Shown here: piece by piece, positions 11,241-41,345 of the stretch | Layout: the number at the start of each line of letters is the position of its first letter | Numbering within the stretch: the stretch's first letter is position 1 | IMG/VR virus record: IMGVR_UViG_3300045988_092202 | From: a virus | Length of the DNA: 41,846 nucleotides | Direction: 5' to 3' (one strand) | Notes under the pieces: generated by a model | Seen by the model: the letters and a program-made list of their open reading frames with translations, nothing else | Told to the model about the DNA's origin: nothing | Database searches by the model: none | Translations under genes and position numbers: made by a program

Positions 11241-11310
11241 TGGTTGTACTCCTTTCGTTTCGGCTCTGGTAGGCCGTATATCTCAGCTCTGGTAGGCTGT
11301 AGATTATGTG

Positions 11311-12936: not shown

Positions 12937-13028
12937 TGGCGGAGCAGGCAGGACTTGAACCTGCACACGGAAATCCATCCGTGAACGGGGTAGCAACCCG
13001 CCGCAGTACCTGTTATGCTTACTGCTCC
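12937..13028 (-). tRNA. tRNA-Ser (anticodon GCU), type II with a long variable arm
   Basis: Cloverleaf folded by hand: acceptor GGAGCAG/CTGCTCC, anticodon loop TTGCTAC, variable arm CACGGA-loop-TCCGTG, T arm GCAGG-TTCAAGT-CCTGC, then G-CCA. Confidence 0.85.
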
Positions 13029-13156: not shown

Positions 13157-13231
13157 TGGCACCGATGGCTGGGGTCGAACCAGCACCCGCCGGGTCAAAG
13201 CCCGGTGCACCGCCTGTTGTGCTACATCGGC
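13157..13231 (-). tRNA. tRNA-like gene with an aberrant 6-nt anticodon loop (UUG/Gln-like, or a pseudogene)
   Basis: The acceptor (GCCGATG/CATCGGT), D arm (GCAC-AACAGGCG-GTGC), T arm (GCTGG-TTCGACC-CCAGC) and G-CCA are all canonical. The anticodon arm, however, is CCGGG-CTTTGA-CCCGG. Confidence 0.6.
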
Positions 13232-35058: not shown

Positions 35059-35264
35059 CAGACTTCCGCCTCCTCATTAAAAATTGTCATGCTCTCGATG
35101 CACCGGGGGCAGTAGTAATCCTTCCGGTCATCTGCCTCGATGCACAGAACCATAGGCTCAGCTATCGGACGCCCGCACCGGGCGCAATGGGGAAGCCGTG
35201 CCAGGTACTTATCCCAGGTGGATTCCCGCCGTTCTGCCTGGGTGTAAGGGGCGTTAAATTCCAT
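35055..35264 (-). CDS. Small zinc-ribbon protein (69 aa)
   Basis: CARCG...CPRC. ATG is at 35262-35264. Confidence 0.55.
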   Translation of the reverse strand: MEFNAPYTQAERRESTWDKYLARLPHCARCGRPIAEPMVLCIEADDRKDYYCPRCIESMTIFNEEAEVW

Positions 35265-35613
35265 CGATCTCACCCCATTCCAGCTTTTCCTGCGCCGCCC
35301 GTGCAATCCGGGCGAAGAAAACGTAATTTGGGATCTTGTCCCTCCAGGCCGAGAACGTTCCGTGCAGATAGCCGTCCAGCACCCTTTGGTTGCTGTTTTG
35401 GAAGGCGTAATGGATGCAGCTCCGGATTCTCCGTTCTACCGTAGGTGCGGTACAGCCGTGCTTGACGGCAAGGGTCTTGTAGATATGCTGGTGTTTGCCG
35501 TTCATCCAGGCCAGGATAGCGTCTTCCAGCATGGAAAAGCCCAGCAGGTGCTCTCCTGCGCCAATGTCCAGAAGAATGTCGGTGATCGCCTTTCTTGCTT
35601 TCTTTTCGTCCAT
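35254..35613 (-). CDS. Spo0A C-terminal-domain-like DNA-binding protein (no receiver domain)
   Basis: It aligns by eye to B. subtilis Spo0A_C: ITDILLDIGAGEHLLGFSMLEDAI with [24 protein letters not shown], and TAPTVERRIRSCIHYAF with TASRVERAIRHAIEVAW. Confidence 0.75.
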   Translation of the reverse strand: MDEKKARKAITDILLDIGAGEHLLGFSMLEDAILAWMNGKHQHIYKTLAVKHGCTAPTVERRIRSCIHYAFQNSNQRVLDGYLHGTFSAWRDKIPNYVFFARIARAAQEKLEWGEIDGI

Positions 35614-36298: not shown

Positions 36299-36312
36299 AT
36301 CGCATTCTCCTT

Positions 36313-36507
36313 TCATGCCTTCTCTTCCAGCCACTTTTCAAAGTCGGCCTTCATAATGATAAACGTTCTTCTTCCGGTCTTGCCGGTTCTGATCTCCTGC
36401 CCGAAGGGAAAGACCCTCTGGCTGATTCCGTCAGCCAGGGTCTTTTTCGACATGGAGATTCCGTGTCGGCGCAGCTCCTGCACCACGTCCTCAAGCGTCA
36501 TTCTCAT
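36313..36507 (-). CDS. Excisionase/MerR-like HTH protein (Xis- or Cro-like, 64 aa)
   Basis: MTLEDVVQELRRHGISMSKKTLADGI...FIIMKADFEKWLEE fits the Xis-type winged HTH pattern. Confidence 0.6.
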   Translation of the reverse strand: MRMTLEDVVQELRRHGISMSKKTLADGISQRVFPFGQEIRTGKTGRRTFIIMKADFEKWLEEKA

Positions 36508-36643
36508 TGTCCTTGCCTCCTTCCTCGCTGCTCTCCCGAACGCTCAGGCCGTGCTTGAAGCCGTCCAGGAATGCCTTTGCCCGCTCGTTGCCCTCAATGG
36601 CACGGGTCAGGTCTTCCACCTGCTTAGTGATTTCTTCTGACAT
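36491..36643 (-). CDS. Small acidic protein (50 aa), first ORF after the switch-region element
   Basis: Translated by hand: MSEEITKQVEDLTRAIEGNERAKAFLDGFKHGLSVRESSEEGGKDNENDA*. RBS is GGAGGTGACATGAA. Confidence 0.5.
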   Translation of the reverse strand: MSEEITKQVEDLTRAIEGNERAKAFLDGFKHGLSVRESSEEGGKDNENDA

Positions 36644-36675
36644 TTCATGTCACCTCCAAAAAGATAAATGTATTT

Positions 36676-36937
36676 GCGTCACGCGGATTTGCGCACAAAC
36701 GTTTCGGTTGAAATCGAAACGGGATTGTGTTAGATTGGGTTTGTCACAGAAATTCCGGTCGGAATGTGGCAATCAACGGTGAAAGGGGGTGGGGCGCTAT
36801 GACAGGGATCGCAGGTTCGCTCGCTGAATCTTTCGTTACAGCCCTCATGCCGTTTCACCGTACCTCCGTCTAGGGCTATGGCTACCAGTCCATAGCCGGA
36901 AACGGCTTCCTCATTTGTGCGCAAATCCGCGTGACGC
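36676..36937. repeat. 262-bp element bounded by perfect 24-bp inverted repeats (GCGTCACGCGGATTTGCGCACAAA at 36676-36699; its reverse complement at 36914-36937)
   Basis: The arms were verified base by base. The 214-nt interior contains nested hairpins: 36700-36721, 36752-36765, and 36849-36906, which encloses 36874-36897. Confidence 0.85.
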
Positions 36938-36946
36938 TGCCGGAAA

Positions 36947-37126
36947 TTACTCTATAAAGATTTCTATGCAGTATCTGTGTATCTCCTCGTCCGTTGGAAG
37001 CTTATAGCCCTTATCCTTCATGTATCTGAGCAGAGCCTTTGCAAGAATCTGCAATTTGACAATCACGATGATACATGCCCCAAACAAAGTTCCTAAAAAA
37101 ATTAACACTAGCTTTAACTTCAGCAT
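36947..37126 (-). CDS. Small membrane protein (59 aa)
   Basis: GGAGGTGAAGTTA-ATG. The product begins MLKLKLVLIFLGTLFGACIIVIVKL... Lies in a low-GC segment. Confidence 0.55.
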   Translation of the reverse strand: MLKLKLVLIFLGTLFGACIIVIVKLQILAKALLRYMKDKGYKLPTDEEIHRYCIEIFIE

Positions 37127-37162
37127 TAACTTCACCTCCATCTTATTGAAAGGGACTTTCTT

Positions 37163-37399
37163 ATGAGTACAAAAGAAACAACCTATCGGGTAAATTGTCC
37201 GATTACCGGCAGACCAGAAGATGTCTACATTCGCTCCACCATATGGGAGGAAGTGTTCGTCGCTTCCTTTACTGGCTGCAACGGCCAGTGGAGCAGTGCC
37301 CCGGAATGTGAAGCCTGCCGGAAAGCCGCTCAGGCTAGGTTTGCCGCAGAGCATCCAGGAGCCCCCGGATCACCGTCAATCCATTGGCACAGGCCTTGA
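37163..37399 (+). CDS. Small Cys-containing protein (78 aa)
   Basis: AAAGGGACTTTCTT-ATG. CP...GC...CEAC pattern. Its 3' end overlaps the convergent ORF 37335-37580. Confidence 0.45.
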   Translation: MSTKETTYRVNCPITGRPEDVYIRSTIWEEVFVASFTGCNGQWSSAPECEACRKAAQARFAAEHPGAPGSPSIHWHRP

Positions 37400-37580
37400 G
37401 AAATGCTTCCTGGTCAAGCTCTGCGTAATATTGGATTCGGCTCAGAGCGTCTTCCAGCATTCCCTTCTGCGTGAGCCAGCCCAGATCGTGCAGAATCCAT
37501 GTGGAAAAATCCAACGCCTCCAGGTCAATCTCTTCTACCGTGCTCTTTTCCATCGTCGGATAGAATAACTTTTTGTCCAT
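37335..37580 (-). CDS. Hypothetical protein (81 aa)
   Basis: GAGGTGAAGTTA-ATG, the same initiation region as the gene at 37126. Helical sequence. Confidence 0.5.
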   Translation of the reverse strand: MDKKLFYPTMEKSTVEEIDLEALDFSTWILHDLGWLTQKGMLEDALSRIQYYAELDQEAFLKACANGLTVIRGLLDALRQT

Positions 37581-37612
37581 TAACTTCACCTCATTTCTGA
37601 AAGGAGATTCTT

Positions 37613-37912
37613 ATGAAAAAACTATGGGAATTCATTGTAGGGATATCGGTCTATGTCTTTTTTGCCTTCTTGGTATGGTTCCTTTACAGGACGTTTATCG
37701 ATGAAGACAGAAGCCTTTCCATTGTAGTGTTCAGCTTGACCTGCCTGATACTGGTCTTGGATACCCTGAATGCTGCCGCCAGCAACATAAAAGGGAAGCC
37801 ATATAAGAGTGTCATCGGCGGTTTACTGGAAAACAAAGACCTGAACCCGTGGTGTCATGCGGCACTTGCCGCCGTGTTTGTCCTTGGATGGATAAAGCTT
37901 GCATTGCTTTAA
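37613..37912 (+). CDS. Membrane protein (3 predicted TM segments, 99 aa)
   Basis: GAAAGGAGATTCTT-ATG and three hydrophobic stretches. Confidence 0.7.
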   Translation: MKKLWEFIVGISVYVFFAFLVWFLYRTFIDEDRSLSIVVFSLTCLILVLDTLNAAASNIKGKPYKSVIGGLLENKDLNPWCHAALAAVFVLGWIKLALL

Positions 37913-37934
37913 CATAAGAAAGAGAGGGTTATTT

Positions 37935-38756
37935 ATGGAGTATCTGATTGATATGGGCGCATTCGCCATAGCATGGGTTGTTGGAAATCTGTTTTCTGCA
38001 TCAATTACAACAATTGGCTGCTGTCTGTTCTGTGGGTTACCAATTGCGCAGAAGCTAAAGCCATACAGCGATTGCATCTATGTGAAGAGTGTCAAAAGCG
38101 TCTACATAGGTTCGATTTTGCGGCATGCCGCAATCCTGGCCGCCGCTTCCTGGGCGGTAGTGACCTATGCACCGCCTATGATGCGTTATGGCTTTTTCTT
38201 TTCCTATGCGTTCACCGTGCTGATCGGATATCGTGCATGGGGCAGAAATGAGCAAAACATTTCAGATTGTGCCGCCTTGATTGAAAAGCATTTCGTCCGT
38301 GGAAAAGAAGAGGAAGCCAATGCCGCTCTCTTCAAAGTTGCTACCGCTGATGGTTTGGAGCGGGAAGCACTGAATAAGTATCTGGAAATCCTGTGTGCGC
38401 TTTTCCTGATTGCGGGAATAATTTATGCGGTGTATTGCAGCGTCCCCAAAAATCAGGAAGCTGATAAGGAAGCGGCCTACAATAGCGGATATGAGACCGG
38501 CTACGGCGAGGGCTATTCCACCGGCTTTGACGAGGGAAAAGCCGTTCAGCGGGAACGGGACACAATCGGTGATTGCTCGATCATTGATCTTGCGCGTGCC
38601 GTCAGGGAGTATTACGGAGTAACCCCGGCGGAAGCATACCAAATTGTAGAAGCCTATGAAAATGAGAAGAAACACGGCGGTTATTCAAAAGAGGACTACG
38701 AAAATGCTATCGGAGCCATTTGGTTCGCCGCTGGCGTGTTCCCAACCAATGATTGA
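37935..38756 (+). CDS. Membrane protein (about 4 TM segments) with a G-Y-rich motif and a soluble C-terminal domain (273 aa)
   Basis: ATG 37935 follows GAGAGGGTTATTT. Hydrophobic segments, then AAYNSGYETGYGEGYSTGFDEG. Confidence 0.7.
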   Translation: MEYLIDMGAFAIAWVVGNLFSASITTIGCCLFCGLPIAQKLKPYSDCIYVKSVKSVYIGSILRHAAILAAASWAVVTYAPPMMRYGFFFSYAFTVLIGYRAWGRNEQNISDCAALIEKHFVRGKEEEANAALFKVATADGLEREALNKYLEILCALFLIAGIIYAVYCSVPKNQEADKEAAYNSGYETGYGEGYSTGFDEGKAVQRERDTIGDCSIIDLARAVREYYGVTPAEAYQIVEAYENEKKHGGYSKEDYENAIGAIWFAAGVFPTND

Positions 38757-38789
38757 CTACGCGATTATATTAACTCTCTTTGCGATATT

Positions 38790-38854
38790 TGTCAACATTT
38801 ATTTTCGCATTTTTCAAAATAAATATTGACAATGCGAGTTTTCAGGAGTATCAT
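38790..38854 (+). promoter_or_regulatory. Repressor promoter TTGACA-17-TATCAT overlapped by a 16-bp inverted repeat (TGTCAACATTTATTTT / AAAATAAATATTGACA)
   Basis: -35 at 38826-38831 and -10 at 38849-38854. Inverted-repeat arms at 38790-38805 and 38816-38831, with one mismatch. Confidence 0.65.
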
Positions 38855-38880
38855 ATAGGTGTGCAAGGGAGGTGATGCAC

Positions 38881-39243
38881 ATGCAAGAACGTATTCGAGA
38901 TGTCCGTAGGCATAGCGGACTGACACAATCAGAATTCGGAGAACGAATCGGTGTCAAGGGGAATACAGTGACCGGCTATGAAACCGGTGTGAGAACCCCA
39001 TCCGATGCAATCATTGTTTCTATCTGCCGGGAGTTCAATGTCAACGAGCAGTGGCTCCGGACAGGTCAGGGGAATATGTTCCTTCCCAAGACACGGGCGC
39101 AGGAGATCGGCGAGATCGTCCGAAACGCCGCCACCCGTGACCCGGAGGAATCCGTGAAGTTCTTCACCGAACTGCTGGGCGATATGACGGATGCGGAAAT
39201 CGCCATCATGTATGAGGTATTCCGGCGGCACTTCCCAAAATGA
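38881..39243 (+). CDS. XRE-family HTH repressor (CI-like, 120 aa)
   Basis: IRDVRRHSGLTQSEFGERIGVKGNTVTGYETGVRTPSDAIIVSICREFNVNEQWL. GGGAGG lies 8 nt upstream of ATG 38881. Confidence 0.88.
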   Translation: MQERIRDVRRHSGLTQSEFGERIGVKGNTVTGYETGVRTPSDAIIVSICREFNVNEQWLRTGQGNMFLPKTRAQEIGEIVRNAATRDPEESVKFFTELLGDMTDAEIAIMYEVFRRHFPK

Positions 39244-39244
39244 G

Positions 39245-39282
39245 AAAACCGGGGACAGCCGTCAATGGCCATCCCCGGTTTT
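39245..39282. terminator. Bidirectional terminator
   Basis: AAAACCGGGGA-loop-TCCCCGGTTTT. Confidence 0.65.
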
Positions 39283-39284
39283 CT

Positions 39285-39383
39285 TCAGGATAGGATACCG
39301 TATATCAGGTCGATGATGACCTCGCTCAGGCTGCTGTCTTCCAGCCGCCGCCGTATCCATTCCAGCTTTTGCTCCCGCCCCAT
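39285..39383 (-). CDS. Candidate 32-aa micro-protein
   Basis: ATAAGGAGGATACAAA-ATG. Product: MGREQKLEWIRRRLEDSSLSEVIIDLIYGILS*. A perfect TATAAT lies upstream (revcomp of 39423-39428), and the ORF ends at the bidirectional terminator. Confidence 0.45.
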   Translation of the reverse strand: MGREQKLEWIRRRLEDSSLSEVIIDLIYGILS

Positions 39384-39654
39384 TTTGTATCCTCCTTATA
39401 TTCAAATATATGTTCTAATATCATTATACCCCTGTTGTGTCCAATAAAGCGGACTGTTTGACCCCGCCCTCCCCGGAATTGTCCGGCTCCCCAGTGCCAC
39501 TTGGAAAGCCGGACGTGCCGCCGGAAGTGCGGTGTCCCTGGCCGCTGAGAAAACCCTACCATAAATTCAGATTTTGGAAAACCCACAAACCGGGAAGCTT
39601 CTCCCTTATTTGGCAAGCTTTCCCGGCAAAACCAGTGAGAGAGGATGTGCAACC

Positions 39655-40197
39655 ATGATTTTACAAGACATTTCTGACCGATGTGACCATCTCCCCGCCG
39701 CCCTCCGGGAGGAGAAGGAACGTCAGCACTACACCTACCCCCAGATCGCCCAGGCTACCGGCGTGCCGGAGCACACCGTGGGCAAGTTCTTCTCCGGCTC
39801 CCTGTCCAATCCCAGCGTCTTTCATGTGGCTGCCTTCTGCATCCTCTTTCATGTAAGCCTGGATTTCCTGTTCGGTATCTCAAACCCCCAGACCGATTCC
39901 CAGCTGCGCCAGGAGTTGGCCGTAACCAAGATGGCACTTTCCAAGGCCGAGGAACAGGTCTCCATCTACCGCACAGGCATTCAGGAGCGTAAGCCCCTCA
40001 TCTATGGCCTGTGCGGTCTTTGTATATCCCTTTCCCTTACGCTGGCTGCCTATGTCCGGCTGGACGCTCTGGCTCCCTCCGTTGGTCTGATTCGCCAGGA
40101 CAGCGTTTCCCCGGTCATCGTCATCGGGGTCTTGGCGGCGGTCTGCGCCTGCCTGTATCTGGCCTATGCCATTGTGAAAAGGGGGCGGAGGAAATGA
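39655..40197 (+). CDS. Membrane-tethered XRE-type HTH protein (180 aa)
   Basis: HTH YTYPQIAQATGVPEHTVGKFFSG, a coiled segment and two C-terminal TM helices. ATGA coupling to the integrase gene. Confidence 0.75.
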   Translation: MILQDISDRCDHLPAALREEKERQHYTYPQIAQATGVPEHTVGKFFSGSLSNPSVFHVAAFCILFHVSLDFLFGISNPQTDSQLRQELAVTKMALSKAEEQVSIYRTGIQERKPLIYGLCGLCISLSLTLAAYVRLDALAPSVGLIRQDSVSPVIVIGVLAAVCACLYLAYAIVKRGRRK

Positions 40198-41345
40198 TTT
40201 GCCCCAAATGCAAAAAGGCCGCCCCGGACGAGGCGGCCTTCTGCCCATGGTGCGGCAAGCGGCTCACCGCCCAGGAGCGGAAGCACCGGAAGCGGGCAAA
40301 CGGAACCGGTACGATCTGCCGCCTTTCCGGAAACCGTGCAAAGCCCTGGATGGCTCGCAAAAACGATGTGCTCATCGGTACCTTCGAGACCCGCTCGGAG
40401 GCACTGAAAGCCTTGGAGCGGCTCACGGATACTCAAATAAACGAGCTTTACAACCTGACCTTTTCGGAGGTCTACGAAAGGTGGGTGCGGGAGCATGGCC
40501 GGGAGGTTTCCGAGAAGCTGCTGAAGAACTACGAGCTGGCCTATACCCAGTGTGAAGCCCTCCACGGCAAGAGAATGCGCTCCCTGCGCCGGTCTGACTA
40601 CCAGGCCGCCGTCATTGCCCTGGAAGAGCAGGGGCTTTCCAAGTCCTCCTGTAATAAGCTCAGGACGATGCTTCGCCAGGTCTGCGAGTATGCCCAGATG
40701 GAGGGCATTCTCCACAGCAACCCCGCCGATGACCTGACCACCGTAGCCCGCCAGAAATCCACACGGGAAATCTTCACAGAGGAAGACATTGCAAAAATCA
40801 AAGTCTCTTCCCTGCCTGCCGCCCAGCTTGCCCTTATCATGATTTCCTCCGGATGCCGCCCCGGCGAACTCTTCACCGTGCCCCTTGCCAACTGCGGCAA
40901 GGATCACATGATCTGGGGCAGTAAGACAGAGGCGGGAAAGAACCGGGTGATCCCCATCGGTTCCGATGGGGTGGAGGCCTACCAGACCCTCACCATTCTT
41001 TCCACAGTCAAGGGCGGCACGCTCCTTGTGGATGGATACGCCGGAAGCCGCAACACAGAGAATTTCCGGCGGCGGGACTGGGCGCAGCTCATGCGGGAAA
41101 TAGGCCGGGAAGGCATGACCCCCTACAGCTGCCGGCATACCTTCATAACCCGTGCAATCCGTGGCGGCATCGACCTGATTTCCCTGGAAGCCATCGTCGG
41201 ACATGTGGATAAAGAGACCACAAAGCTCTATACCCACCTCCGGGCAAGCGATCTTGTCACCGCCGTCAGAGATTCCACCGCAAAAAATGCGGTTAGTAAC
41301 AAATCTGCAACGCGGAAAAACAGCCAGATTTCAAAAGCCGTCTAA
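40194..41345 (+). CDS. int: Tyrosine integrase with an N-terminal zinc ribbon (383 aa)
   Basis: CPKC...CPWCG at the N-terminus. Catalytic-type motifs GCRPGEL, SCRHTFITR and ...TKLYTHL. The adjacent tRNA fragment supports the call. Confidence 0.92.
   Translation: MICPKCKKAAPDEAAFCPWCGKRLTAQERKHRKRANGTGTICRLSGNRAKPWMARKNDVLIGTFETRSEALKALERLTDTQINELYNLTFSEVYERWVREHGREVSEKLLKNYELAYTQCEALHGKRMRSLRRSDYQAAVIALEEQGLSKSSCNKLRTMLRQVCEYAQMEGILHSNPADDLTTVARQKSTREIFTEEDIAKIKVSSLPAAQLALIMISSGCRPGELFTVPLANCGKDHMIWGSKTEAGKNRVIPIGSDGVEAYQTLTILSTVKGGTLLVDGYAGSRNTENFRRRDWAQLMREIGREGMTPYSCRHTFITRAIRGGIDLISLEAIVGHVDKETTKLYTHLRASDLVTAVRDSTAKNAVSNKSATRKNSQISKAV

What the first reader, a model, noticed from the sequence alone, without database searches (positions are those of the whole stretch)
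36676..36937. 262-bp element with perfect 24-bp terminal inverted repeats at the heart of the genetic switch
GCGTCACGCGGATTTGCGCACAAA (36676-36699) is repeated as an exact reverse complement at 36914-36937.
- Each arm contains two palindromic sub-sites: GCGT-C-ACGC and TTTGCGCACAAA.
- The 214-nt interior has no credible ORF but folds into nested hairpins: CGTTTCG/CGAAACG, ATTCC/GGAAT, and GCCGTTTC...GAAACGGC enclosing GGCTATGG/CCATAGCC.
- It lies 32 nt upstream of the first early-operon RBS and 10 nt downstream of a small membrane-protein gene.

I see three readings:
1. Paired operators for repressor-mediated DNA looping.
2. A structured RNA leader whose 24-bp duplex would be an RNase III or termination-control site.
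3. A MITE-like insertion.

I do not recognise it as any known RNA family.
Basis: seen in the sequence. Interest (0 to 1): 0.7.

Follow-up and report, generated by a model that had tools for sequence, protein, structure and literature searches.

The report
Inverted-repeat-bounded antisense RNA cassette in prophage
The perfect 24-bp inverted repeat is real, but it frames a small promoter-plus-structured-RNA cassette that fires away from the phage's early lytic genes, not a jumping element or the repressor's operator pair; what the two arms do is still unproven.

Summary
In detail: 36676-36699 and 36914-36937 are exact reverse complements, which never occurred in shuffles.

Comparison with 23 related gut-phage loci changes the interpretation:
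- The left arm belongs to an invariant control block: the arm, a 22-bp palindrome, and a sigma-70 promoter (TTGAAA-17-TAGATT with TG) that points away from the early operon.
- The interior is this promoter plus an exchangeable structured-RNA cassette. It occurs in three forms of 259-427 bp and is missing in five or six phages.
- The right arm always closes the cassette.
- The RNA folds best in the promoter's sense (z -5.0 against -2.3, many G-U pairs). It carries a strong Shine-Dalgarno sequence with a 24-codon ORF, and a hairpin whose CUACCAGU loop recurs upstream of a late gene.

Readings that fail:
- Mobile element (MITE): no dispersed copies and no target duplications.
- Invertible promoter: 17 of 17 loci have the same orientation.
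- CI operator pair: the repressor varies while the arms do not.
- Known RNA family: no Rfam match.

The true immunity switch lies 2.1 kb away, at 38767-38854.

Best guess (0.4): leftward read-through RNA folds the arms into an RNase III-type helix just before the early operon. Main rival (0.3): two protein-binding sites flanking the promoter.

The parts
36676..36699 (.). Left arm, proximal to the early operon: GCGTCACGCGGATTTGCGCACAAA.
   Evidence: Exact inverted repeat. Present in all 23 related loci and unchanged in every one except L010, which has a single C>T change. This includes the loci that lack the other arm.
36700..36721 (.). 22-bp palindrome CGTTTCG-N8-CGAAACG. Its centre is the -35 hexamer: TTGAAA here, and the self-complementary TTGCAA in most relatives. 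It is a candidate operator.
   Evidence: Invariant in all loci apart from the A/C difference in the -35. A full-length Spo0A_C-domain DNA-binding protein is encoded in the early operon; any link between the two is inference.
36708..36736 (+). Outward-facing promoter-like site 'P_div': TTGAAA, 17 nt, TAGATT, with an extended -10 TG. The predicted start is near 36743.
   Evidence: 9 of 12 matches plus TG. Conserved in all loci. In L009 and L012 it lies about 45 nt upstream of the RBS of a divergent 149-aa gene. In L013 it lies upstream of the 78-aa Cys-rich gene.
36743..36770 (+). 5' stem-loop (SL1) of the predicted rightward RNA.
   Evidence: A second sequence variant (GTCAC-ACCTTACCAGCTGGAAG-TGAC) keeps the hairpin with different bases. 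It has a U-G wobble in the plus sense, which would be a C-A mismatch in the minus sense.
36776..36861 (+). 86-nt imperfect hairpin (SL2). It buries the Shine-Dalgarno sequence and most of the mini-ORF.
   Evidence: (I3). There are 6-7 invariant G-U pairs in the plus sense and one compensatory AU<->GC pair. The interior z-score is -5.0 on the plus strand against -2.3 on the minus strand.
36799..36873 (+). 24-codon ORF (MTGIAGSLAESFVTALMPFHRTSV). GAAAGGGGGTG lies 7 nt upstream of its ATG.
   Evidence: The ORF is intact in all 15 loci that carry the Z module. Four of the six substitutions are synonymous third-position changes (p about 0.04-0.1). Translation is not shown.
36874..36897 (+). Hairpin SL3: GGCTATGG-CTACCAGT-CCATAGCC. 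The conserved-loop motif is CUACCAGW.
   Evidence: The same loop sits on different stems in the X module of relatives and twice at 11261-11299 (minus strand).
36904..36913 (+). GGCTTCCTCA, a constant pyrimidine-rich (anti-Shine-Dalgarno-like) linker that precedes the right arm in every cassette form.
36914..36937 (.). Right (distal) arm, the exact reverse complement of the left arm. It always forms the outer end of the cassette.
   Evidence: Only its two outermost positions vary among 17 loci. Four different outside contexts begin exactly at its edge.
36491..36643 (-). First gene of the early lytic operon (50 aa). Its RBS GGAGGTG is at 36651-36657.
   Evidence: Some relatives carry an unrelated 54-aa gene here, behind the same leader.
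36947..37126 (-). 59-aa membrane-protein gene that ends 9 nt before the right arm.
   Evidence: This neighbour is not conserved. Other loci have a cytosolic protein of 76-89 aa here, or a gene on the other strand.
38767..38854 (.). The immunity switch proper: back-to-back consensus promoters (TTGACA-17-TAATAT leftward, TTGACA-17-TATCAT rightward) directly upstream of the XRE repressor gene (38872-39243, plus strand).
   Evidence: In the distant relative L026 the equivalent leftward promoter directly abuts the homologue of the 50-aa gene.
11261..11299 (-). Two tandem hairpins, CAGC-CTACCAGA-GCTG and CGGC-CTACCAGA-GCCG. They lie between the large-terminase gene and a 303-aa gene, just upstream of that gene's RBS.
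   Evidence: They are unchanged in L025, L106 and L107.

Best explanation
The 262-bp element is a promoter-plus-structured-RNA cassette. It sits in an island of about 2.1 kb of accessory genes that separates the repressor-controlled lytic promoter (38795->38767) from the early operon (starting at 36643).

**Shown**
- The left arm is part of an invariant control block: the arm, a 22-bp palindrome and an extended -10 sigma-70 promoter. The promoter fires rightward, away from the early operon.
- The interior is this promoter plus an exchangeable RNA module with a 5' hairpin, an 86-nt hairpin that buries a strong Shine-Dalgarno sequence and a 24-codon ORF, and a CUACCAGU-loop hairpin.
- The module folds significantly only in the rightward sense.
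- The right arm is an inverted copy of the left arm and always closes the module.

**Inferred**
- In lysogens the rightward promoter makes this RNA. It may read on into the plus-strand accessory genes.
- On induction, leftward transcription from the repressor-side promoter must cross the element to reach the early operon.
- In that leftward RNA the arms pair into a perfect 24-bp helix. The helix loops out the antisense copy of the cassette 32 nt before the first early start codon.
- A helix of that length is a substrate for host RNase III. The rightward RNA is also a perfect antisense partner of the same leader.
- Together they would decide how much read-through RNA becomes usable early-operon mRNA, either as a lysogeny safety catch or as a maturation step.
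For: **The repeat and its family**
- The arms are exact and non-random.
- There are 23 related loci: 17 with two arms (13 distinct sequences) and 5-6 with one arm. One of the six, L024, is cut 59 nt upstream of its arm and cannot be scored.
- The cassette is modular: Z only (259-262 bp), X only (294 bp) or Z-Y-X (424-427 bp). In each case the right arm is the outer boundary, in four different flanking contexts.

**The rightward promoter**
- It is conserved in all loci.
- In L009, L012 and L013 it is correctly placed upstream of divergent protein genes.

**RNA sense**
- Interior z-score is -5.0 on the plus strand and -2.3 on the minus strand. For L006 the values are -3.8 and -2.5.
- The alifold energy is -85 against -63.
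- SL2 has 6-7 invariant G-U pairs in the plus sense and one AU<->GC compensatory pair.
- SL1 is kept through a complete change of sequence.
- The CUACCAGW loop is shared with sense-strand hairpins in the late mRNA.

**Leftward transcription**
- The scan of 36300-39300 found no leftward sigma-70-like site except the one at 38795->38767, and only one weak leftward terminator-like site between it and the element.
- In L026 the equivalent promoter sits about 60 nt upstream of the homologous first early gene.

**The helix**
- The 24-bp helix appears in both the minimum-energy and centroid folds of 291-, 601- and 681-nt leftward-sense RNAs.
Against: - No transcript ends were measured. Read-through from 2.1 kb away is an assumption, and a weak local early promoter (TGCGCA-17-TACATT, overlapping the left arm) cannot be excluded.
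- Phages with only the left arm exist, so the helix is dispensable.
- The arms show no covariation. Their few changes are single transitions: two at the helix ends, and one internal change in the left arm of L010 that would break a pair in the leftward RNA. An RNA stem is therefore not favoured over two identical DNA sites.
- In L014 and L022 the right arm lies in the 5' leader of a gene driven by the rightward promoter. That suits a DNA roadblock or operator at least as well.
- The interior is poorly structured in the leftward sense.
- The ORF may mean that the rightward product is a small protein rather than a non-coding RNA.
Confidence: 0.4

Rival explanations
1. The arms are two copies of one asymmetric protein-binding DNA site. 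They flank the rightward promoter, centred near -55 and +182 to +346. A conserved phage protein binds both. It then either loops the DNA to shut the promoter or blocks elongation at the end of the cassette. The left copy also overlaps a weak local early promoter.
For: - Identical repeated sites of about 20 bp in phage control regions are usually operators.
- The left arm abuts a 22-bp palindrome at the -35.
- There is no intrinsic terminator after the RNA module, so a roadblock would explain where the RNA ends.
- In L014 and L022 the right arm sits just before the RBS of a downstream gene.
- Both arms have the same orientation relative to outgoing transcription, as mycobacteriophage stoperators do (from general knowledge).
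- DNA-binding candidates are conserved wherever the arms are: the 207-aa HTH-plus-membrane protein (87-100% identity), the Xis-like 64-aa protein, and the Spo0A_C protein.
Against: - No binding protein has been identified.
- The CI-like repressor varies while the arms do not.
- There is no further copy of the arm or its sub-sites anywhere in the genome, including upstream of the candidate regulators.
- An arm is not a dyad in itself.
- Identity over all 24 positions, including apparent spacer bases, is more than operators usually keep.
- Arm-to-arm spacings of 235, 238, 270 and 400-403 bp do not share a helical phase.
- The putative recognition region of the Xis-like protein differs between W and L001 although their arms are the same.
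Confidence: 0.3
2. The right arm has no selected function. It is a relic of how the RNA cassette was captured (an inverted duplication or template switch), and it still looks perfect only because the clade is young.
For: - All loci are very similar, with about 6% variable columns in the element. The arms are not significantly more conserved than the interior.
- The cassette and the right arm were lost independently several times: the single-arm loci keep different lengths of SL1.
Against: - Four different outside contexts all begin exactly at the outer edge of the right arm.
- Internal deletions that produced the Z-only and X-only forms all spared the arm and the 10-nt linker.
- An unrelated Lachnospiraceae prophage has a comparable 21-bp perfect repeat around a FuFi-1 RNA cassette.
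Confidence: 0.1
3. Invertible promoter. Recombination between the arms flips the interior, so that the internal promoter drives either the plus-strand accessory and lysogeny genes or the early lytic operon.
For: - The architecture matches: inverted repeats flank a promoter of about 200 bp, and in the present orientation it points away from the lytic operon.
- A tyrosine recombinase is encoded about 3 kb away, and the early operon encodes a homologue of the phage annealing-protein family phrog_3657, here called RecT-like.
Against: - All 17 two-armed assemblies show the same orientation.
- One-armed phages have the promoter fixed in this orientation.
- An arm has no internal dyad of the kind that serine or tyrosine invertases use (read from the sequence).
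- No dedicated invertase gene lies nearby.
Confidence: 0.04
4. Type I toxin-antitoxin pair. The 59-aa membrane protein is the toxin, and the convergent rightward RNA is its antisense antitoxin.
For: - The geometry is convergent.
- The neighbour is a small protein with one N-terminal membrane helix.
- The structured RNA of about 200 nt has its own promoter.
Against: - The membrane-protein gene is next to the right arm in only a minority of loci. Others have a cytosolic protein of 76-89 aa there, or a gene on the other strand.
- No terminator is found that would give a defined overlap.
Confidence: 0.04
5. MITE-like mobile insertion bounded by 24-bp terminal inverted repeats.
For: It has terminal inverted repeats, a small size, and coding capacity limited to the 24-codon ORF.
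Against: - There are no other copies in the window, in GTDB genomes or in IMG/VR beyond the homologous locus.
- There is no target-site duplication.
- Conservation runs through the left arm up to the early start codon.
- No empty site was found, whereas half-sites that keep only the left arm do occur.
Confidence: 0.02

Closest known systems
Correia/NEMIS (Neisseria) and ERIC-type miniature repeats, co-transcribed with neighbouring genes (from general knowledge)
   Same: - Length of about 100-260 bp with terminal inverted repeats of about 25 bp.
- They can carry outward promoters.
- When transcribed, the repeats fold into a long helix that RNase III cuts, which changes the fate of the mRNA.
   Different: - Those elements are dispersed in tens to hundreds of copies with target duplications.
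- This one is single-copy, occurs only at one phage locus, and has no duplication.
- Only its right arm behaves as a module boundary.
Phage cis-antisense and retroregulation systems: lambda OOP, P22 sar, lambda sib with RNase III, and the convergent promoters of phages 186 and P2 (from general knowledge)
   Same: - A small RNA is transcribed against the lytic leader from its own promoter.
- An RNA helix forms only in read-through transcripts and would mark them for RNase III.
- Lysogenic and lytic promoters converge.
   Different: - Here the helix is a long-range 24-bp pairing across 214-380 nt, not a local hairpin.
- The convergent promoters are about 2 kb apart.
- None of the RNAs is homologous, and nothing has been shown experimentally.
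Auxiliary-operator and looping systems (gal OE/OI, TP901-1 CI OR-OL-OD, 186 CI flanking sites) and mycobacteriophage stoperators (from general knowledge)
   Same: - Two identical sites lie upstream and downstream of a promoter, a few hundred bp apart.
- Their orientation is the same relative to outgoing transcription.
   Different: - The sites do not covary with the immunity repressor.
- There are only two copies in the genome.
- There is no dyad within a site.
- The spacing has no conserved helical phase.
Invertible promoters (fimS, Clostridioides difficile flgB and cwpV switches, Bacteroides capsule promoters) (from general knowledge)
   Same: Inverted repeats of about 20-30 bp bracket a promoter segment of about 150-300 bp.
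   Different: - Only one orientation is seen in 17 assemblies.
- There is no dedicated invertase.
- The arms lack a recombinase-type core.
FuFi-1 RNA (Rfam RF02986; Weinberg et al. 2017, PMC5737381), as found in prophage locus L069
   Same: - In an unrelated Lachnospiraceae prophage that has a homologue of the same annealing protein, a structured RNA of unknown function lies among the early genes.
- That RNA is transcribed against the early operon.
- It follows a strong promoter and a 22-codon ORF with a strong RBS.
- It is bracketed by a perfect 21-bp inverted repeat with a 371-nt spacer.
   Different: - There is no sequence or covariance-model similarity to the RNA here.
- In L069 one arm contains the -35 and the other abuts a true terminator.
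- This is one case only, so whether the arrangement is general is unknown.

Membership tests
MITE / non-autonomous IS | Multiple dispersed copies in host or phage genomes | tested here: not met
   The arm has 2 copies in the window, 0 hits in 185,579 GTDB species genomes, and 1 IMG/VR contig at the homologous locus.
MITE / non-autonomous IS | Target-site duplication flanking the terminal repeats, and empty sites in relatives | tested here: not met
   The flanks ...GTATTT| and |TGCCGG share no duplication. Relatives lacking the cassette keep the left arm and the promoter block.
MITE / non-autonomous IS | Terminal inverted repeats | tested here: met
   24 of 24 positions are complementary.
Invertible promoter (inverton) | Inverted repeats bracketing a promoter | tested here: met
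Invertible promoter (inverton) | Both orientations present in populations | tested here: not met
   17 of 17 two-armed assemblies share one orientation. Read-level data were not available.
Invertible promoter (inverton) | Dedicated invertase nearby, and a recombinase-type dyad core within each repeat | tested here: not met
   Only the phage integrase is present, at 40011-41345. The halves of an arm are not inverted copies of each other (read from the sequence).
Operator pair of the CI-like (XRE) immunity repressor | Operators covary with the repressor and recur at the repressor's own promoter | tested here: not met
   Repressor classes of 98-100, 66-67 and 38-46% identity all occur with identical arms. 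No arm-like site is found at 38760-38870.
Any Rfam 15 RNA family | Covariance-model match | tested here: not met
   No hit at the gathering threshold. At E<=10 there were only noise hits of 13-18 bits.
Intrinsic terminator | GC-rich hairpin directly followed by a U tract | tested here: not met
   The SL3 and X-module hairpins are followed by GGCUUCCUCA, not by U runs. The scan finds no terminator at either arm.
nut/boxB- or put-like antitermination RNA site | Same-sense RNA motif with its own conserved stem-loop in both divergent transcripts | tested here: inconclusive
   The same-sense requirement is met by the geometry. However, an arm alone has no structure beyond chance (z -0.26 and +0.25), and the leftward start site is unknown.
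Type I toxin-antitoxin | Conserved pairing of a small hydrophobic toxin gene with an overlapping antisense RNA | tested here: not met
   The membrane-protein neighbour is present in only 5 of 23 loci. Other genes abut the arm elsewhere.
Retron non-coding RNA | Terminal inverted repeats inside the transcript, and an adjacent reverse transcriptase | tested here: not met
   The predicted start lies inside the arms, so the left arm is not transcribed. None of the neighbouring proteins scanned has a reverse-transcriptase domain.
RNase III long-range processing stem (as around rRNAs) | At least about 20 bp of uninterrupted duplex formed by sequences flanking a structured domain in one transcript | tested here: inconclusive
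   The duplex is predicted in every leftward-sense context tested. Whether such a transcript exists, and whether it is cleaved, cannot be tested with these tools.

The most novel reading that the evidence does not exclude
The cassette RNA belongs to a phage-specific RNA regulon defined by hairpins with the loop CUACCAGW.
- The same loop occurs on four different stems: in the Z and X modules of the cassette, and twice in tandem just upstream of the RBS of the 303-aa (scaffold-like) gene next to the capsid gene.
- The lysogeny-side RNA could act as a decoy for an RNA-binding regulator of late-gene translation.
- Alternatively, its leftward antisense copy could form a loop-loop contact with the late mRNA.
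- In either case the 24-bp arms would delimit or release the RNA. This would be a previously undescribed link between the lysogeny region and capsid-operon translation.
Probability: 0.15. Interest if true: 0.7.

Novelty: new variant of a known kind. Interest (0 to 1): 0.45.

Why it matters
Little is known about how temperate phages of gut Oscillospiraceae-like hosts (host assignment tentative) control lysis and lysogeny.
- **Displaced lytic promoter:** the classical repressor-controlled lytic promoter has been moved 2 kb from its operon by accessory genes. A compact, exchangeable RNA cassette with its own outward promoter now sits at the entrance to the lytic operon.
- **If the arms act as an RNA clamp or as paired sites:** this would be a second control layer for prophage stability that standard annotation cannot see.
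- **Candidate new RNA:** the cassette is a candidate phage RNA family absent from Rfam.
- **Possible general design:** the similar inverted-repeat frame around a FuFi-1 RNA in an unrelated prophage may point to a general design for prophage RNA genes whose function is unknown.

Tried and rejected
**Searches that found nothing**
- Rfam on the window and the element, both strands, at gathering and E<=10 thresholds.
- BLAST of the element against 50,697 phage records, and of the L069 analogue.
- The Z-module hairpin searched in IMG/VR.
- A covariance model of the leader plus Z module searched over 80 distant prophage loci and the window. It found only itself.

**Searches that returned only the close clade**
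- Arm and interior patterns in IMG/VR matched only one related contig.
- Protein homologues of the first two early genes form only a very narrow clade.

**Readings rejected**
- MITE.
- Inverton.
- CI operators.
- Retron: the predicted start lies inside the arms and there is no reverse transcriptase.
- Type I toxin-antitoxin: the neighbour gene is not conserved.
- Arms as terminators or as boxB-like hairpins.
- A riboswitch-like alternative pairing (GCCGTTTC with either ACGGTGAAA or GAAACGGC): the second partner is missing in the Z-Y-X forms.
- A rightward promoter upstream of the left arm (CTGACA-17-AAAGAT): 8 of 12 matches, made of early-gene codons, and lost in loci that carry the alternative first gene.
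- The other long-range inverted repeats found in distant prophages: the L033 repeat lies in paralogous HTH coding sequences. The L064 and L073 repeats are each self-palindromic by eye and were not examined further.

**Inconclusive**
- Helical phasing of the arm spacings.
- Comparison by eye of the arms with the LexA, Spo0A, cre, Rex and CRP consensus sequences gave no convincing match.
Full report
**1. The observation**

The 24-nt arms at 36676-36699 and 36914-36937 are exact reverse complements separated by 214 nt. They form the longest inverted repeat in the region. With up to three mismatches the arm occurs only at these two places in the window, and none of 100 shuffles gave two matches.

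Three points in the finding need correction:
- TTTGCGCACAAA is a 5-of-6 near-palindrome, and neither sub-site recurs in the window above chance.
- The interior does hold a short ORF with a very strong ribosome-binding site.

**2. Genomic setting**

The window is a temperate phage or prophage, with almost all genes on the minus strand.
- To the left of the element, the minus-strand early operon starts at 36643. It encodes a 50-aa protein, a 64-aa Xis-like protein, a full-length Spo0A_C-domain protein, a DUF1351 protein and a homologue of the phage annealing-protein family phrog_3657, here called RecT-like.
- To the right lies a mosaic of small genes on both strands.
- Further right are an XRE repressor gene (38872-39243, plus strand), a 207-aa HTH-plus-membrane protein and a tyrosine integrase.

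The consensus scan of 36300-39300 found only three sigma-70-like promoters:
- a back-to-back pair directly upstream of the repressor gene: TTGACA-17-TATCAT rightward, and TTGACA-17-TAATAT leftward at 38795->38767;
- TTGAAA-17-TAGATT with an upstream TG at 36708-36736, on the plus strand. This one is inside the element and points away from the early operon.

No leftward promoter-like site lies between the element and the early operon.

**3. Relatives**

The arm 24-mer and interior patterns hit a single IMG/VR contig. A 21-mer from the arm hit none of the GTDB species genomes. I then collected 23 related loci, all from gut metagenomes, by looking up the exact 50-aa protein and by scanning metagenome contigs for the junction of core and arm.

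Seventeen loci have both arms (13 distinct sequences). Six show only the left arm; one of these, L024, is cut 59 nt upstream of its arm and cannot be scored. The comparison shows:
- **An invariant block.** It comprises the left arm, the palindrome CGTTTCG-N8-CGAAACG (whose centre is the -35, TTGCAA in most loci), the -10 TAGATT, and the first bases of the transcript (GTCACA). It is unchanged in every locus. The genes on both sides are swapped around it: the first early gene is either the 50-aa protein or an unrelated 54-aa protein behind the same leader.
- **A modular interior beyond that block.** It occurs as module Z alone (259-262 bp overall, as in the window), module X alone (294 bp), or Z-Y-X (424-427 bp).
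- **A constant closing end.** Every form ends with GGCTTCCTCA and then the right arm. Four different outside contexts begin exactly at the arm's outer edge.
- **One-armed loci.** The promoter there is followed within about 45-60 nt by the RBS of a divergent protein gene (149 aa in L009 and L012, the 78-aa Cys-rich protein in L013). This is the best evidence that the promoter is real. These loci keep different lengths of the 5' hairpin, so they look like independent replacements of a cassette-bearing ancestor.
- **L014 and L022.** A gene on the promoter's strand follows the right arm, so the arm is not an obligatory terminator.
- **Orientation.** All two-armed loci have the interior in the same orientation.

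**4. Readings this excludes**

- MITE. The element is single-copy and has no target duplication. Conservation runs through the left arm to the start codon. Half-sites occur instead of empty sites.
- Invertible promoter. All 17 loci share one orientation, one-armed phages have the promoter fixed the same way, there is no dedicated invertase, and the arms lack a dyad core.
- Operators of the immunity repressor. The XRE repressor falls into classes of 98-100, 66-67 and 38-46% identity among loci whose arms are identical. The repressor's own promoter region has its own repeats and nothing like the arm.
- A known RNA family. Rfam gave no match.

**5. The interior as RNA**

Without the arms, the interior folds much better than shuffles in the promoter's sense: z = -5.0 for the window and -3.8 for the Z-Y-X form. 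In the opposite sense the values are -2.3 and -2.5.

In the alignment of nine distinct Z sequences:
- the 86-nt hairpin has six or seven invariant G-U pairs in the plus sense, which would be A-C mismatches on the other strand;
- one pair switches between A-U and G-C;
- the 5' hairpin is preserved through a wholesale sequence change.

The ORF is intact in all Z-bearing loci. Four of six substitutions are synonymous third-position changes. In the X-only form its first two codons are fused in frame to a 31-codon ORF of module X. This is suggestive (p about 0.04-0.1) but does not prove translation.

Directly after the stop codon comes a hairpin with the loop CUACCAGU. A covariance model of the leader plus Z found nothing in 80 distant prophage loci, so the RNA is specific to this clade.

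**6. A shared loop motif**

CTACCAG occurs 11 times in the window against 2.9 expected. Three occurrences are 8-nt loops of hairpins with unrelated stems:
- the Z hairpin;
- two tandem hairpins (CAGC/GCTG and CGGC/GCCG stems) on the sense strand between the large-terminase gene and a 303-aa gene next to the major head protein gene. The second lies about 7 nt upstream of that gene's RBS.

Module X of the relatives carries a fourth, CCCGGC-CTACCAGA-GCCGGG. No other 7-mer is a loop three times in the window. Any 7-mer reached three in only 4 of 200 shuffles. A constant loop on variable stems is the signature of an RNA element read by a protein or by a complementary loop. This supports an RNA-level role for the cassette.

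**7. Where the lytic promoter is**

A more distant relative, L026 (74% identity in the RecT-like protein), has the classical compact switch:
- a repressor gene;
- three operator copies;
- a consensus promoter TTGACA-17-TATATT about 60 nt upstream of the homologue of the 50-aa gene;
- no arm and no cassette.

In the window, the equivalent leftward promoter is still a near-consensus site next to the repressor gene. About 2.1 kb of accessory genes, including the element, now lie between it and the early operon. Only one weak leftward terminator-like site intervenes. The simplest transcription map is therefore:
- leftward lytic transcripts cross the element;
- rightward transcripts from the internal promoter run against them.

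A weak local early promoter (TGCGCA-17-TACATT, overlapping the left arm) cannot be excluded.

**8. What the arms do**

This step is inference. If leftward transcripts cross the element, the arms will pair. The 24-bp helix is in the minimum-energy and centroid structures of 291-, 601- and 681-nt leftward-sense RNAs. A perfect helix of that length is a textbook RNase III substrate. It would sit 32 nt before the first early start codon and would form only in read-through RNA, which is the logic of lambda sib. The rightward RNA is in addition a perfect antisense partner. I rank this first, at 0.4.

The main rival (0.3) is that the arms are two copies of an asymmetric protein site flanking the rightward promoter, acting by looping or as a roadblock.
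- In favour: there is no terminator after the RNA; the right arm sits in the 5' leader in L014 and L022; and conserved DNA-binding proteins are available (the 207-aa HTH-membrane protein, the Xis-like protein and the Spo0A_C protein).
- Against: no binding protein is known, there are no other copies, an arm has no internal dyad, identity is perfect over all 24 positions, and the spacings are out of helical phase.

The data do not separate the two. The few arm changes are single transitions, mostly at the helix ends, and say nothing either way. An arm alone has no local structure. A functionless relic (0.1) is disfavoured because every rearrangement spared the complete right arm.

**9. A possible analogue**

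I scanned the 80 distant prophage loci for perfect inverted repeats of at least 16 nt with spacers of 60-700 nt. I estimate roughly 0.1-0.3 by chance; four were found.
- L033: the repeat lies in paralogous HTH coding sequences.
- L064 and L073: each repeat is self-palindromic by eye and was not examined further.
- L069: a 21-bp repeat brackets 371 nt containing an Rfam FuFi-1 RNA (95 bits) transcribed against the early genes. By eye, the RNA follows a strong promoter whose -35 lies in one arm and a 22-codon ORF with a strong RBS, and it ends at a terminator that abuts the other arm.

FuFi-1 is a conserved RNA of unknown function (PMC5737381). This is one case only, so it is a lead and not a rule.

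**10. Verdict**

The repeat is real and is not explained by any catalogued family. It is not the operator core of the immunity switch, not a MITE and, on present evidence, not an invertible promoter. It bounds a clade-specific, exchangeable cassette: an outward promoter plus a structured RNA, possibly encoding a small peptide, at the entrance to the early operon. The role of the arms is still unproven and comes down to two testable models.

Novelty: a new variant of known kinds (phage antisense RNA, long-range processing stem or auxiliary site). Interest: moderate.

Noticed in passing
window 11261-11299 (minus strand), 36874-36897 (plus strand); L006 about 2640-2660: A family of hairpins with a constant 8-nt loop CUACCAGW on unrelated stems. 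Two stand in tandem upstream of the RBS of the 303-aa gene beside the capsid gene. One is in the element, and one is in module X of the relatives. CTACCAG is about 4-fold over-represented in the window.
   Followed up: partly
window 38767-38854 compared with L026 1900-2060: The near-consensus leftward promoter beside the repressor gene has no leftward gene for more than 1 kb. In the relative L026 the same promoter directly drives the first early gene. In the window, about 2.1 kb of accessory genes on both strands (36650-38760) appears to have been inserted between promoter and operon.
   Followed up: partly
L069 3972-4384: A perfect 21-bp inverted repeat with a 371-nt spacer brackets an Rfam FuFi-1 RNA, a strong promoter (TTGAAA-17-TAAAAT with TG, its -35 inside one arm) and a 22-codon ORF. 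It lies in the early region of an unrelated Lachnospiraceae prophage.
   Followed up: partly
window 37124-37138 and 37578-37592: An identical 15-nt RBS-plus-start block (GAGGTGAAGTTAATG on the minus strand) heads two different small minus-strand genes. In L013 a junction lies exactly at this block, which suggests that it mediates recombination between accessory genes.
   Followed up: no
window 35254-35613 (minus strand): The early operon encodes a stand-alone, full-length Spo0A C-terminal DNA-binding domain (Pfam E = 8.5e-14). The half-sites of the 22-bp palindrome at the outward promoter (TCGAAAC / CCGAAAC) loosely resemble 0A boxes. The gene is absent from L009 and L012.
   Followed up: partly
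window 37163-37399 (plus strand); L001 6209-6418: Paralogous small Cys-rich proteins (motif GCNGQ...CPECxACxKAA) are encoded antisense to, and overlapping, small minus-strand genes. There are one or two copies per phage, and the gene is the direct cargo of the outward promoter in L013.
   Followed up: no
window 36644-36675 and the homologous leaders: The A/T-rich leader between the left arm and the early RBS exists in two lengths, 32 and 42 nt. They differ by a 10-nt duplication (TTTATCTTTA), independently of which first gene follows.
   Followed up: no
window 12940-13028 and 13160-13231 (minus strand): Two tRNA genes lie just upstream of the large-terminase gene.
   Followed up: no
window 39574-40197 (plus strand): A 207-aa protein with an XRE-type HTH and predicted membrane segments lies between the repressor and the integrase genes. 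It is conserved (87-100% identity) even in phages whose CI-like repressor is only about 40% identical, which makes it a candidate second regulator.
   Followed up: partly
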